Shown: piece by piece, positions 14,101-46,100 of the stretch
Layout: each line of letters begins with the position of its first letter
Position numbering within the stretch: the first letter of the stretch is position 1
Assembly: GCF_030684315.1 (NCBI RefSeq)
Contig: NC_081391.1
Location: 6,738,178 to 6,802,177 of the forward strand
Direction of reading: 5' to 3'
Length of the DNA: 64,000 nt
Source of the DNA: Stegostoma tigrinum
Lineage: Eukaryota
Position numbers and translations under genes: made by a program
The notes under the pieces: model-generated
Seen by the model: only the letters and a program-made list of their open reading frames with translations
Told to the model about the DNA's origin: nothing
Database searches by the model: none

Positions 14101-15519
14101 TCCATGCAAGGCCCCTATCATAGGTATTCATTCCCTCCTTTCAGAGATTGCTTAAAAACCCACCTCTTCGAGCAAATGTTGGTTAATTTGTCTTTTATAT
14201 TGGTGTCAGGCTATGTTTGATATTACTTCTGTGAAGCACCTTGACACATACATAAGGGTTATGTAAATGCAGCTGGTGATTGTTGGCCTCACCTCTGCCA
14301 TGGGTGTGAAATTTCAGCATCTGTGGAAGCAGTGGGTTTGAATTTTTATTACTTCTGTGTGTTTTTCATTTGATCCAATATAACTCTATTTCTGTTGGAA
14401 GAATATAGTTTTTTTAATCCAGAAACTAGCTTGATTGAGGTTTCTGTAGAGACTCCTGAAATGCGTGCACATCCAGCTTCGGGCTGACAAAGAAAAATTA
14501 TTCTGATTTAAGAACCGCACCATAATTAGGTTTAAAATGAGCTCAAGCAAGTGTGATGCAGATTGTTCTATGAATATTGGATTGTTACCTTCCATTTAAT
14601 GATTGGGATCTCTTTGCCCCTTGCCCCAAGGTGGAGCACAGTGACTCATTTCTCCTGAATGTAGTTCATTGTTGCTCTTGGTTAAAGTGGCGTAACATAT
14701 GTGGAATAAAAATGGAAAATACTGGAAATTTTCAGCAAATCTGGTTTGTATCCCTGGAAAGTGAAACAGTGGCTATTTCAATCCCAATATGGAACAGTCC
14801 CTGAATGTATGTGAGCACATAGTGTAGTTAGTTTTGTGATTTTTTTTTCCAGTTGAAATCTCTAACTTGTTTTGAAGTGGAGCCATCTCTGTCCCCAGAG
14901 TTCAAATTTGAGTGTGTTTCACTGACAACAGCATGCATATATGTAGTCAAAGCAAGAAAATGACTTTAATGAAGCACAATGGGACATTTATGTATTCTCT
15001 AATGTACATATTATTTATATGTAATTACTTTGTATTTAATCTAAAGAAATGTTAAAGTGCTTCACAAAGCATTAAATAATGAACAGTCAGTTGGACAACG
15101 ATGACCAAAAGCTCAGCTAATGTGATGGGAGGGGTTTTGTTTGACAATGAAGTGATTTTGATGTTGCGATGGGGTTTCTAAGCTAAAGTTTCACTATTTG
15201 AAAAGTATTAAATCCTTTGGAACTGTTGTTTCCAGAGTTGCAATCTTAACACCTTGTAATAATTTGAAGAGTCATAGGCCATTTTGGAGGATGCTGTGCG
15301 CAAGTTTTTGGTTTTGAATCTATTGCCTGTCTGATTTCATGACATCTCATCATTGAAATTATGGACTTTCTGTACTGTTTCAAACTGCTGAAAATTAATT
15401 GCAGCTTATCCTTTGCTCTCCCTTTCAAGCATTTCTAGCAACTGGGATGTGTGTGATCTTTTTTTTTAAAGAAAATCTTTTTTCTCCCCTTTTTTTTTCA
15501 GGGTAATATTCGCGCCAAG

Positions 15520-15709
15520 GTGGATTTGCCAAATGAAGTTAGCCTTCCCCCTGCCGTCTCTGGGACTGGAGCAGATGGCAGTGGGGTTGGCGATGGTGAA
15601 GACGATGGTTCAGCTCCGAGTCCACAGAGTGAAGCGGTCACAAATGAATTGCAGGAGCTCACATTGCAGTCAAACAATGGCCTCTCTCCATTGAACAAAA
15701 GAAAAAATG
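15520..15709 (+). CDS. MRTFA: First coding exon of myocardin-related transcription factor A (MRTF-A/MKL1). Exon is 15502-15709; CDS probably starts at GTG 15520; ends in phase 1.
   Basis: Long polypyrimidine acceptor (tttctcccctttttttttcag, AG at 15500-15501) and donor AATG|GTGAGT after 15709. Translation VDLPNEVSLPPAVSGTGADGSGVGDGEDDGSAPSPQSEAVTNELQELTLQSNNGLSPLNKRKN resembles my recollection of the human MRTF-A N-terminus (..NEVRLPPSV..DGGGAGENDD..APSPQSEAVANELQELSLQ..LPPLSERKN|VLQL). The NEV.LPP segment favours MRTFA over MRTFB. Confidence 0.88.
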
Positions 15710-15987: not shown

Positions 15988-16400
15988 AGTCTAGCTCAAT
16001 GGGTAGCATTCTTGCCCGTAAATCAAATAATCGTGGTACAAAGTACTACTGCAGATACTTAAAACTATCATGAAGGCTAACAACCCCAGGTCTTCTGCAT
16101 TGCTGGGTGCCGTCTTTTGGAGTAACTATTAAACCAGCCTGCTTTCTGCCCCTCCAAGTTGATTCCACAGCACCGTTCTGAAATGGAGAATGGAAACTCT
16201 TCTTGTAGTGTTGACCAGTAGTTCTCCCCAAACCAGTGTTGCTAGAACAGATGAGGTGATCATATTGCTTAATCATGGGAGCACGCTGTGCAGCAGCCAA
16301 CTTGTGCACTACATGCATTCCAAAAGTAACTACAGCCCATAAGCATTTCACAGGCCATGTAATATTCTGGGATGACCAGAAACAGTGAAAATACTATCTG
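15988..16400 (+). mobile_element. Deu-domain SINE (SacSINE1-like), degenerate
   Basis: agctcaatgggtagcattcttgcc tRNA A-box; gcattgctgggtgccgtctttt..ttaaacc Deu-like core. Confidence 0.6.
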
Positions 16401-17107
16401 AACACTTTATTTTCTTCCCATGATTTAATGGAGCTGGTGAGCAAAGCTGCCTTAATTAGTGATGTGAATGATTCCATAAATATGATAGAGTATGTTTGCT
16501 TGAGACTGGATATCGTGAGCTCTGGGAGTTGGCAGTGGCATGAGTGGTTGTGTTCTTTCTTTCTTTGTAACTCAGGGTGAGGTCAGTTTCAAACAAGCAT
16601 TTAAAAAAAGTTGCAAAATGTAACTGAAGTTAACATGCAGATTTGTTATTTTCCCTGTCATCTGTTTTCAATTTTCAGAAAATGTGAAAACTGTTTCTTG
16701 GAGATGTTGTACTTTGAATTGTTTATACAGTTTCTTAATCAAAGCTGTGCTTTGTATGTGAATCAGCAAACTACATCAGTTTAGATTTGTGGTTTTCATT
16801 GGAGGCATCTCAGTCAAATGATGCTAGATACATTTAAACAGGACAGGCAGCATCTTTGGAGAGAAAATTGGAGATTTTGTCAGAACTGATGGTAAGTGCA
16901 GATACCGAATTCAAAAACAAACTTGTTTTAAACTTTGATTAACAGCAACATCTGCACAACTTACCTAAAGTTCAAAGCCTCTTCAGGAAGTTGCACAGAT
17001 CTTAATGTTGGAATTTACTCAAAACATGGTGCAAGTTGCACTCAATGTAACAATAGTGATGTCTCAGTAATTGTATTTGAGTTCACAGTTGTGAGCAGCC
17101 TGAGGGT

Positions 17108-30923: not shown

Positions 30924-31043
30924 AGCACTCGGCTCCACCTGGTGCTCCTGAGATGGGAAGCCAGGCGAGCGAGGTGCGGACTTCTCCACAACTTCGTCAA
31001 TGCCACTCTACCTTCAGTCAACAGGAGGAGCGCCTGCTAAAGG
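30924..31043 (+). CDS. Candidate 120-nt phase 1-1 alternative (cassette) exon of MRTFA
   Basis: ~40-nt polypyrimidine tract ending ...cccattaAG (30922-30923) and donor AAGG|GTGAGA. Open in frame with the upstream exon: (E)HSAPPGAPEMGSQASEVRTSPQLRQCHSTFSQQEERLLK. Richer in GC and CpG than its flanks. No homology confirmed. Confidence 0.5.
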
Positions 31044-43114: not shown

Positions 43115-46100
43115 GTTTGGGATGGGCCTCAAATGCTATCCTTTGAAAGAAATAAATCACTTTTTTTTGTCTTTAACTTGGAGAAGCTTACTAAACTTAC
43201 TCAGTGGACATATTACAAAGTTGCCAATCAGAGGTTCTGTTCCCTCTAATTTTCCTGCTCTTGCATAGGTCTCCAAGGTCCGTGTGGCTGTGGCTTCCAG
43301 ACCAGAGGCCTGTACGTTCATAGGATCCTCTGAGCAGCTGCCGCACAGCTTAGAAGAAGTGTTGATCAAAAATATATGCATGGGGAGAAAAGAGATTTGC
43401 AATAATTCTTCATTTGTTTAAATGGAGTTTAAATTTTAATTTCATACCCAGTCCCTGTGACTGCACCAAGTACGCTGAGCACCATTCTCTAATAGTCTTG
43501 GTGGCCCCACAGCAGTCGTTTTCGTTCAGCAAGTTCCTCGTCACCATTGAATTTAATGGTGTGGCAGACATGTCAATTGAATGGATTTTCTGGCCCTTCG
43601 GGCGGTGTCCAGGTCATTGGCTGATTTTGCCCAGTTTTTAAAAATGTTTTTGGAGCTAGCATCAGGAAGAAGACTAGCATTTGCTTGCTGGTGCTCCTGT
43701 TAAACCTGGAAGATGCAGTGAGGACTTTGTTAATGGATTTTTCTCTACTATCCTTGTATGTTCCAGATGTACTGTTCAGGTCTCCCTGCAGTAATGAATA
43801 TGCAGATGACAGTTGCTCAGTGCAGTAGGACTTCTGACTTATGGTGGTCTTTGTTGTCAAACACACATTTCTTTGGTTTGTAGAACGCTGTACCGAAACA
43901 GCTGTTTGAATGTTCCCTGTCAGGTCTTAACTCTCAAATGGCCAACATTCAAGGTGCTCGCATGAGGAAAGGTCTTCAAAGATGTTCCGAAATTTCTGTT
44001 TGAGTACTACCAATGGTTCAATATGGTGACAATTTACCTGTCAAATTGTGTCCTGCTTAAATCACAAGGCCTTAATGTTGAGGCAACATGTGACTCTATG
44101 ACTGTGACAAAGGAAGCAAATCCTCCACCGTAGTTCCGTGCATATCTGGGCATATCCTGGCCTCCATGTCCAAAGATCAGCATATCAAGAACTAGGCAGA
44201 TTAATTACTGTTTTGTGTCAGGGCTCATGCACCCAGATTTCTCTCTTGCTAGTTCTTGTTATTGTCTGACTGTATTAGAGCAACTTGTCCGTCTCTAATT
44301 TTCATCCTTACCTGTGTAGAAACCTCCTTAGAATTGCTTTGACCTTCTCACAATGGCATACCTGAGATCAGGAGCTGGACTGGCATAAGATCACATTGTT
44401 CAGTGTGCCCTTCGACTAAATATATCATTCTGTTGTACAATGGTACTTACCTGTAGTGGAAGTGTGTTTGGACACCAGGTCAGGTTTGAGAAGCAGTGGA
44501 CATTCTCCTCGGATCTAAGGAAGCTACCGGGAGATCTGATGGAGATGTGCACGGTCATGTCAAGTTTTTTCTACCTAACCTAATTTTTCCATTAGCTGAA
44601 GGCACAAGGAGTGGAGTCACGTGGTTTGGTGTAGATAGCAACAGTTAAGTGTTCTTACTGCATAGCCATGTCAGCCATGATGTGCTAACTAATGGAGCAC
44701 TGCGTTTGGTTAAATTGAGGCATTTTCACAATGGCAATCTAAAAGTAGTGGATTGCTGAGGCTCTGATTATTTATAATATATGACTGACTTGGATGATGA
44801 AAATGAATGCATTATCGCCAGATTTGTGGATGATACAAACGGGTGAGAAGACAAGAAATAAGGATGGCACAGCCTGCTAGGGATATTGATAGACTATGTA
44901 ATGGGAGAAAAACTTGGCAGCTGGAGTATAATGTGTGAAAAATTGAAGCTCAAGTGTGAGTTTGCCTTTGATCAAATGAAATTTTTAAAGTTAAGAACCT
45001 ATTTTAGTGACTGGATTTAATCTCTTACCCAGGCATGGACTGTACCTCTCGCAGCAGTCTGACACTTTGCCGGGTGACAAGTTGCTTGCATGTACAAGTT
45101 ACAATGACAGCTTTCCAAGCCTGTTATTGATGCATGGATCCAACAGCTGTGATGTTAGTGAAAAAAATAAATTAAAGACTCTGACGGTTAGTGTGATATT
45201 AAAAACCTGAAAAAAAGTCTCGAGTCAACATGTGCTGGTTGGAGCCAAGAGGGCAGCTGTGTAAGTACTATTTTGGTTGCAATAAGTCACTTGTTGCCAT
45301 GTGTTGTCAGTCTTGTATGTGCAGACTATGGCAAATGTTACCCTCTGTCACATGTAGCTGCTTCAGAGTGCGATCACGGTATCAGTTGGAGAGCTTTTGG
45401 ATCTTGTTCTGGCTGCTGTATTATGAAGCAGAGGAAAGTCCTGATTAGATTCTTTTGAACTAAGCTAAGGGTGCAGGGCAATTGAGTCACGCAGGCTGAA
45501 TGTCAGAAGTTGGAAATGATAAGTATTCTGGTTGCACTGCTGTAGCTTGAGACTGCACACCGTTGATTGCCCCAAGAAAAGCTTTAAATGTACTTTCTTC
45601 AAAAGCAGTCTTCTACCATGCTGGATGAGACCAGGAAAATCAAGCCAGTCTTGTCCGAGATCCTGTCTGTCAACGGTCACGACACTTGGAAAGGACATTG
45701 CTGTGCTGACAGTACTCGTTACCGGGGGTTAAAAGAAGGTTAGCTTTCTCCTGCTTGTGGTCATTTTCACCGAAAGTAGACTGTTGCATATTGTTCACCT
45801 TCGCCTTCTGCATATCTGCCCAATCCTAGCAACTGTTGACAGACTTAAATGGCTTTCTGATGCAGAACCTAATATAAATCTACGTTCGGGCGAATGAATT
45901 TCTGGTAATTTACAAACAAGCAAACTCCTTGTGATTTGACTCGTTTGCACTCATTTGAATAAACTTTTGGATCTGGGAAAATTATGAAAAATTCAGACCT
46001 TCAAGAGTGCATCGTTGGGTTTACTAGTGACAGAATGAAAATTGCACATGCAAGTGTAAAGCATTGGGTATAGTTCAGGTGGGTGGGGTGGCGGATGGGT

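What the first reader, a model, noticed from the sequence alone, without database searches (positions are those of the whole stretch)
15502..15709. Conserved non-AUG (GUG) start of MRTFA in a probable shark
Seen: the exon has no in-frame ATG. GTG at 15520 sits in an optimal Kozak context (gccAagGTGG) and similarity to MRTF-A begins there (VDLPNEVSLPP). Recalled knowledge: the long mammalian MRTF-A isoform has been described as initiating at a near-cognate codon, either a CUG at the LPP leucine or an upstream GUG. Here that leucine is CTT, which is not near-cognate. Inference: the GUG is the ancestral start and has been kept across jawed vertebrates. AUG-dependent annotation would miss the N-terminal extension, which includes the SP site and the LQELTL export-signal-like motif.
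Basis: partly seen in the sequence, partly recalled or inferred. Interest (0 to 1): 0.7.

Follow-up and report, generated by a model that had tools for sequence, protein, structure and literature searches.

The report
Shark-to-rat GUG start with downstream hairpin
In a shark, the gene for the actin-sensing transcription cofactor MRTF-A carries the same unusual GUG codon and surrounding letters as rat, followed by a predicted RNA hairpin whose pairing rat also keeps, so this likely is an ancient hairpin-assisted start of translation, although a GUG start is already published for human and ray-finned fish appear to have lost it.

Summary
Confirmed: a spliced 208-nt MRTFA exon (carpet-shark-like genome) with no in-frame ATG and a GTG at 15520 in strong context. 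The GTG and 14 nt around it match rat cDNA. A GTG start is already published for human MRTFA. 'Kept across jawed vertebrates' overreaches: the motif is in 6 of 6 cartilaginous-fish models and 112 of 120 tetrapod models, altered in 5 of 5 frog models, absent from 120 of 120 ray-finned models; AUG-bearing first exons exist in rat and probably amphibians. New here: a predicted hairpin (-33 kcal/mol) begins 23 nt from the GUG, the reported optimum for structure-assisted initiation. By eye, rat keeps the stem with two double-sided changes, and the rodent CUG 'start' lies inside it, which favours GUG over CUG. Out-of-frame AUGs follow the GUG. No initiation was measured; the structure rests on two sharks and one rat. 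The scan noted a different MRTF extension in an invertebrate, not this.

The parts
15478..15501 (+). Polypyrimidine tract and AG splice acceptor (phase 0 with respect to the main frame)
   Evidence: junctions
15502..15709 (+). MRTFA exon orthologous to mammalian exon 3 (first coding exon of the long isoform), 208 nt
15514..15527 (+). GUG codon (15520-15522) with its context; 14 nt identical to rat FLMKL1/MELODY cDNA; G-6, C-7, A-3, G+4, A+5
15542..15591 (+). Predicted RNA hairpin starting at +23 from the G of GUG; 18 pairs, one bulged base in the lower stem, -33 kcal/mol
   Evidence: rat compared by eye
15544..15546 (+). CTT leucine, orthologous to the rodent CTG proposed as start; lies in the 5' arm of the hairpin (+25 to +27)
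15533..15694 (+). Out-of-frame (+1) ORF, 53 codons, fed by six ATGs, ending at TGA inside the exon; would catch ribosomes that pass the GUG
15619..15624 (+). Ser-Pro site orthologous to mouse S33
15643..15669 (+). NELQELTLQ, orthologous to the mouse NES1 core NELQELSLQ
30924..31043 (+). 120-nt in-frame cassette exon with an in-frame ATG (30953) in strong context; joined to the exon in contigs of X8 and X2
45588..45738 (+). Probable alternative ATG-bearing first coding exon that bypasses the GUG exon (86% identical to a bamboo-shark isoform start)

Best explanation
The exon is the first coding exon of the long MRTF-A isoform, and scanning ribosomes likely start at its GUG, likely helped by a strong context and by a predicted hairpin 23 nt downstream that would stall the 40S subunit with the GUG in the P site. 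Ribosomes that miss the GUG would mostly be caught by the out-of-frame AUGs that follow and stop inside the exon, so output of the S33/NES1-bearing protein from these transcripts would be set by GUG efficiency (inferred). The module (context, GUG, stem) is shared by sharks and a rodent and is therefore likely ancestral to jawed vertebrates; it appears lost in ray-finned fish, which have in-exon Met codons, and relaxed in frogs, whose models start in an upstream AUG exon. Shown: exon, splicing, lack of upstream in-frame ATG in two transcript forms, shark-rat identity of the context. Predicted: the fold. Inferred: initiation, stalling, ancestry.
For: Exon 1 joined directly to this exon (own species, run X8) has no in-frame ATG back to an in-frame TGA; the exon 1-2-3 form (seen in the relative, X3) has an in-frame TAG in this species' exon 2 and no ATG after it. 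All 5 listed differences to the related shark are synonymous third positions downstream of the GTG. 14 nt around the GTG are identical in rat; GTG is forced in a dunnart model by two-frame deduction; human MRTFA TV1/3/4 start at a GTG in exon 3 (review passage). Hairpin: z -3.6, 0 of 200 dinucleotide shuffles as stable; more stable than all 331 other coding windows of the gene tested and absent from the AUG-started paralog (-12.5). Rat by eye: 7 differences in the two arms, none breaks a pair; both 5'-arm changes are matched by the partner (U.U to G-C at +27, G-C to U-A at +34), two are one-sided and pair-keeping, one is the bulge; the codon-length difference falls in the loop. The relative's one stem change turns G-U into G-C (-35.8). 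Residue changes in three other cartilaginous fishes stay compatible with 15 of 15 core pairs; random sets of 2-4 changes do so in 9-29%. Reported optimum for a helper structure is +23 to +26 (PMC11165317). An AUG-started downstream ORF after non-AUG starts is a described pattern (PMC5714202).
Against: No initiation or protein data for any shark. The structure comparison is three DNA sequences (two close sharks, one rat, the rat by eye) and the register was taken from the shark fold. Against synonymous recodings the stem is only modestly unusual (80 of 2000 with the gene's codon usage, 25 of 2000 flat), so Pro/Gly codons explain much of its stability. Turtle and caecilian residues force loss of 1-2 core pairs. 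Conservation does not step up at the GTG. The START optimum was measured for CUG, GUG was inefficient in that reporter for a context reason, and an older figure is about 15 nt. Other in-frame near-cognates lie upstream (CTG in exon 1, CTG in good context in exon 2). Rat MELODY reads through this codon as Val. Rodent papers assign the start to CTG.
Confidence: 0.55

Rival explanations
1. The GUG is the start, but context alone does the work; the hairpin is a by-product of Pro- and Gly-rich codons or serves another purpose (splicing, protein binding, pausing).
For: Synonymous-recoding null gives only z -1.9 to -2.4; context already has G-6, C-7, A-3, G+4 and a non-G at +5, the features reported to raise non-AUG initiation; turtles lose one pair.
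Against: Two double-sided changes between shark and rat and the loop-confined indel (by eye); position at +23; the AUG-started paralog has no such stem; frogs, which altered the motif, also lose compatibility (11-13 of 15, alignment unsure).
Confidence: 0.25
2. The long protein starts further upstream, at an AUG in an unseen MELODY-like first exon or at another near-cognate codon in exon 1 or 2, and the GTG is read as an ordinary valine.
For: Acceptor is phase 0 and the frame upstream of the GTG is open in all species seen; rat MELODY is a cloned example; frog, caecilian and Arapaima models share a similar upstream AUG peptide and turtles share another; amniote residues upstream of the Val are conserved; several shark models start at upstream Mets.
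Against: The upstream peptides of the cartilaginous-fish models differ from each other, and none has an intact counterpart in the 58 kb between exon 1 and this exon here: one maps to a stretch with the Met lost and a stop, exon 2 has an in-frame TAG. RefSeq models of three cartilaginous fishes have no upstream AUG. The junctions identified in contigs are exon 1 and exon 2 only (few runs, contigs drop rare forms).
Confidence: 0.15
3. In sharks this exon acts as leader; protein comes from the downstream AUGs (cassette exon, alternative first exons, exon 4).
For: These AUG starts exist and are what RefSeq annotates in three species.
Against: 5 of 5 listed differences are synonymous in the main frame; SP and NES1 residues are conserved from sharks to mammals; six or seven out-of-frame AUGs lie ahead of the downstream starts.
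Confidence: 0.05

Closest known systems
Human MRTFA long isoform (MKL1_L, TV1/3/4), GTG start in exon 3 (Scharenberg 2014, seen only as cited in review PMC8079280)
   Same: Orthologous gene and exon; GTG in Kozak context; encodes the S33 site and NES1; untranslated exons 1 and 2 upstream
   Different: Shark; the rodent alternative CTG is CTT here; extension is 7 residues shorter before the SP; I could not read the primary paper, so whether it mentions conservation or a hairpin is unknown
Rodent MAL(fl)/FLMKL1 with leucine (CTG) start and rat MELODY (PMC3821035)
   Same: Same exon; same 14 nt around the GTG; same 24-nt spacing from GTG to the LPP leucine
   Different: The CTG is not available in shark and in rat lies inside the predicted stem; no MELODY-like AUG exon was found in this genome
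STructure-Assisted RNA Translation (START) / downstream-hairpin enhancement of non-AUG starts (PMC11165317)
   Same: Stable stem (beyond the -15 to -20 kcal/mol thresholds reported) at +23, within the reported +23 to +26 optimum
   Different: Here a natural GUG with apparent shark-to-rat covariation; function untested; optimum was measured on CUG
EIF4G2/NAT1 GUG start and the NAT1 motif (PMC5714202, PMC13754004)
   Same: GUG with GCC at -6 to -4, purine -3, G+4; out-of-frame AUG ORF downstream
   Different: Differs from GCCGCC at -9 and -8 (rat also at -7); MRTFA/MKL1 not named in either main text or in the two held supplements of PMC13754004; that paper calls the motif mammal-specific

Membership tests
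MRTFA ortholog | RPEL, basic/Q, SAP and C-terminal exons downstream on the same strand | tested here: met
MRTFA ortholog | Groups with MRTFA, not MRTFB or myocardin | tested here: met
   with named shark MRTFA-like proteins (100/100), these with bony-vertebrate MRTFA (88/85, below the starred level); the genome's C27 copy falls with named MRTFB (100/99), C26 apart. Synteny not tested.
Conserved non-AUG N-terminal extension | No in-frame AUG upstream in the transcript | tested here: met
   two transcript forms only; rare first exons not excluded
Conserved non-AUG N-terminal extension | Near-cognate codon and context invariant across species | tested here: inconclusive
   DNA seen for two sharks and rat, deduced for one marsupial; elsewhere residues only; lost or altered in ray-finned fish and frogs
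Conserved non-AUG N-terminal extension | Coding-type conservation downstream of the codon | tested here: met
   5 of 5 listed substitutions synonymous; a sixth difference was not listed
Conserved non-AUG N-terminal extension | Conservation begins at the codon | tested here: not met
   upstream residues to the acceptor are also conserved
Conserved non-AUG N-terminal extension | Initiation shown by profiling, reporter or N-terminal peptide | not testable with these tools
   reported for human in the review only
START-type helper hairpin | Stem more stable than about -15 to -20 kcal/mol at +23 to +26 | tested here: met
   prediction only:
START-type helper hairpin | Covariation across many species | tested here: inconclusive
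   three DNA sequences, rat by eye; residue compatibility
START-type helper hairpin | Disruption lowers initiation | not testable with these tools
   needs reporters
NAT1 motif GCCGCCRNNXXXG | Full match, or single-base variant | tested here: not met
   two mismatches (-9, -8); key -7/-6 positions match

The most novel reading that the evidence does not exclude
MRTF-A carries a translation-control module older than the shark-bony fish split: a GUG, a helper hairpin at +23 that has shaped the PPxV...DGGG residues of the N-terminus, and a trap of out-of-frame AUGs. It makes the amount of export-signal-bearing MRTF-A depend on start-codon stringency (eIF1/eIF5/5MP), shows the rodent 'Leu -92' CUG start to be a mis-assignment, and was replaced independently in teleost mrtfab by a different near-cognate (Leu) start that toggles to AUG.
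Probability: 0.3. Interest if true: 0.72.

Novelty: new member of a known kind. Interest (0 to 1): 0.5.

Why it matters
MRTF-A is the main actin-controlled SRF cofactor, and two start codons (human GUG, rodent CUG) are in print for its long form. A shark that has the GUG but not the CUG, plus a stem that buries the CUG and sits at helper distance from the GUG, turns that disagreement into a simple reporter test. If the stem is functional it is a rare natural, deeply conserved example of structure-assisted GUG initiation in a well-studied gene, links MRTF-A dose to start-codon stringency, and means many vertebrate gene models start this protein wrongly.

Tried and rejected
No listed run is on record as RNA; the contigs laid are spliced, but they cannot show start site, strand or level. 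Own-species runs X7, X9, X10 gave no cover of exon 2: no evidence either way. A third loose end after the exon matched nothing in the window or the 90 kb downstream; its agreement was 0.62 and it is probably a blend of two junctions. Search of the 58 kb upstream for counterparts of 12 annotated upstream peptides found only exon 2 and one degenerate stretch (short peptides, low power). No BSAC-like first exon found in the window. Rfam: nothing near threshold. The 50%-cluster search returned no chimaera, coelacanth, lungfish or gar N-terminus that I could identify, so these lineages are untested. The equal 190-nt distance from start to donor in MRTFA (GTG) and the paralog (ATG) is not used as evidence: the first 99 nt are 27% identical. 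The primary human paper (PMID 24424023) could not be read.

Full report
1. The observation. The exon 15502-15709 is real: pyrimidine tract and AG before it, GTGAGT after it, and contigs from four runs match it edge to edge and run on into other exons (two runs identical to the window, two from a relative with six differences). It has no in-frame ATG; seven ATGs lie in the +1 frame. The GTG at 15520 has GCC at -6 to -4, A at -3 and G at +4; such an in-frame context arose in 0.8% of 20,000 shuffles, a minimal one in 37%. The LPP leucine is CTT.

2. The gene. Best protein hits are shark MRTFA-like models at 97%. RPEL, SAP and C-terminal exons follow 49-130 kb downstream. In a 25-row tree (22 stored proteins that I picked, three paralogs of this genome) this copy groups with named shark MRTFA-like proteins (100/100) and these with bony-vertebrate MRTFA (88/85); the C27 copy groups with named MRTFB (names). 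The genome looks like a carpet shark.

3. The refutation test. Loose ends led to exon 1 (CpG island, ends 58 kb upstream) and a 76-nt exon 2 (34 kb upstream). Run X8 joins exon 1 to this exon; run X3 of the relative joins 1-2-3. In the 1-3 frame there is no ATG back to an in-frame TGA; in the 1-2-3 frame this species has an in-frame TAG in exon 2 with no ATG after it, and the exon-1 ATG is closed after four codons. In-frame CTG codons exist in exon 1 (no G+4) and exon 2 (good context). Database models disagree upstream: those of C. plagiosum, H. ocellatum, C. carcharias and M. hypostoma start at unrelated peptides, RefSeq models of C. punctatum, Cetorhinus and M. birostris omit the exon's protein. 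None of 12 upstream peptides has an intact counterpart here beyond exon 2 (low power).

4. Conservation. The relative keeps the GTG and context, and all 5 listed differences are synonymous third positions. Rat cDNA (supplement of PMC3821035) shares 14 nt around the GTG and the 24-nt spacing to the leucine. A dunnart model read in another frame forces GTG and CTG, assuming wallaby residues. At residue level KV[DE] is present in 6 of 6 cartilaginous-fish models; among the best 120 of 488 hits (all tetrapod where named), 99 have it, 13 start at that V/M, 5 (all frogs) have it altered, 3 lack it; among the best 120 of 272 hits (ray-finned where named) none has it and 118 have a Met within 30 residues before the SP. 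Caveat: many ray-finned models begin at that Met, so upstream DNA is unseen; the few longer ones also lack the motif. Rows are clusters, not species. Chimaera, coelacanth, lungfish and gar were not retrieved. Conservation does not begin at the Val: amniote residues from the acceptor on are equally conserved, which fits rat MELODY, an AUG first exon read through this codon, and a shared upstream AUG peptide in amphibian models.

5. The hairpin. Folding 15530-15600 gives a stem at -33 kcal/mol, z -3.6, 0 of 200 shuffles, beginning at +23 from the G of GUG, pair probabilities 0.96-1.0. It beats all 331 windows from five other coding exons (minimum -29.1) and the same offsets in the AUG-started paralog (-12.5); against synonymous recodings it is reached by 80 of 2000 (gene codon usage) or 25 of 2000 (flat), so amino-acid content explains part of it. 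Comparing the rat cDNA by eye in the shark register (17 positions): seven differences, none breaking a pair; +27 U.U becomes G-C and +34 G-C becomes U-A (both sides changed), +33 U-A becomes U-G, +37 G-U becomes G-C, the bulged base differs, and the one-codon length difference lies in the loop. The relative's only stem change is the same G-U to G-C (-35.8). Residues of three further cartilaginous fishes and of 84 amniote models allow 15 of 15 core pairs; 22 turtle-type models allow 14, caecilians 13-14, a salamander-type model 12, frogs 11-13 (alignment unsure; three rows not placed); random sets of 2-4 residue changes keep 15 of 15 in 29, 21 and 9% (the shark changes are partly shared). In rat the proposed CTG start occupies +25 to +27, inside the stem.

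6. Mechanism. Reporters place the best distance for a helper structure at +23 to +26 (measured on CUG), with thresholds near -15 to -20 kcal/mol, and note that GUG needs extra compensation (PMC11165317, passages); an older figure is about 15 nt (PMC3105428, passage). G-6, C-7 and a non-G +5 favour non-AUG starts (PMC13754004, passages). An AUG-started out-of-frame ORF after non-AUG starts is described (PMC5714202, passages); here it runs 15533-15694. The extension holds the equivalents of S33 and the NES1 core, which promote Crm1 export in mouse (PMC4963197, passages). I therefore infer hairpin-assisted GUG initiation setting the level of the export-competent long isoform, with AUG-started short isoforms from other exons (30924-31043, 45588-45738). 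None of this was measured.

7. What is known. The human GTG start is stated in a review (PMC8079280, passages) citing Scharenberg 2014, which I could not read; rodent papers use the CTG (PMC3821035, passages and supplement). Searches for conservation, ribosome profiling or a stem-loop at MRTFA found nothing relevant; PMC8199744 and PMC4422812 (passages) added nothing; MKL1 is not in the main text of PMC3105428 (its supplements not read) or PMC5714202 (supplements not read). The library lacks most subscription papers, so absence from print is not established. The scan has no note near this place and one on an invertebrate MRTF extension, untested here.

8. Verdict. Real feature; a shark member of a known non-AUG start, with a narrower distribution than claimed and an apparently undescribed conserved hairpin that makes the GUG-versus-CUG question testable. 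Interest 0.5.

Noticed in passing
L013:1453-1491 (exon 2, G000:C50): Out-of-frame 12-codon upstream ORF with ATG in strong context, ending 5 nt before the exon end and 23 nt before the GUG; exon 2 inclusion would likely damp GUG initiation. Its stop codon is kept in the relative.
   Followed up: partly
L016:7552-7566 (exon 1 region): Four-codon ATG...TGA ORF just 5' of where the contigs begin; in frame with the main ORF in the exon 1-2-3 form but closed by its stop, which the relative keeps.
   Followed up: partly
ray-finned fish proteins P0008, P0144, P0153, P0169, P0172, P0208, P0242, P0243 versus P0006, P0159: Thr-Leu-Ala exactly 27 residues before the SP in 8 models, Thr-Met-Ala at the same distance in 2, and 27 models beginning Met-Ala 20-30 residues before it: pattern expected of a CUG/UUG start that toggles to AUG. 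Codons not seen.
   Followed up: partly
proteins P0007, P0012, P0124-P0127, P0129, P0137: Frogs, caecilians and Arapaima share a similar short AUG-started peptide before this exon, suggesting an old MELODY-like first exon in bony vertebrates.
   Followed up: partly
L056:1500-1689 (-), G000:C27: The MRTFB paralog exon has an in-frame ATG 190 nt before its donor, the same distance as the MRTFA GTG, and no downstream hairpin.
   Followed up: yes
window 30924-31043: In-frame 120-nt cassette exon also present in other shark and ray models, with its own in-frame ATG.
   Followed up: partly
L016:7590-10000 and L015:1-5500 (intron 1): About 7.5 kb of 70-80% GC, repeat-like sequence directly after exon 1; a second CpG-rich block of about 14 kb lies in L023-L022. 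Not examined.
   Followed up: no
window 14697-14745 and 16073-16500: Short stretches hit by many unrelated contigs at under 90% identity, probably interspersed repeats.
   Followed up: no
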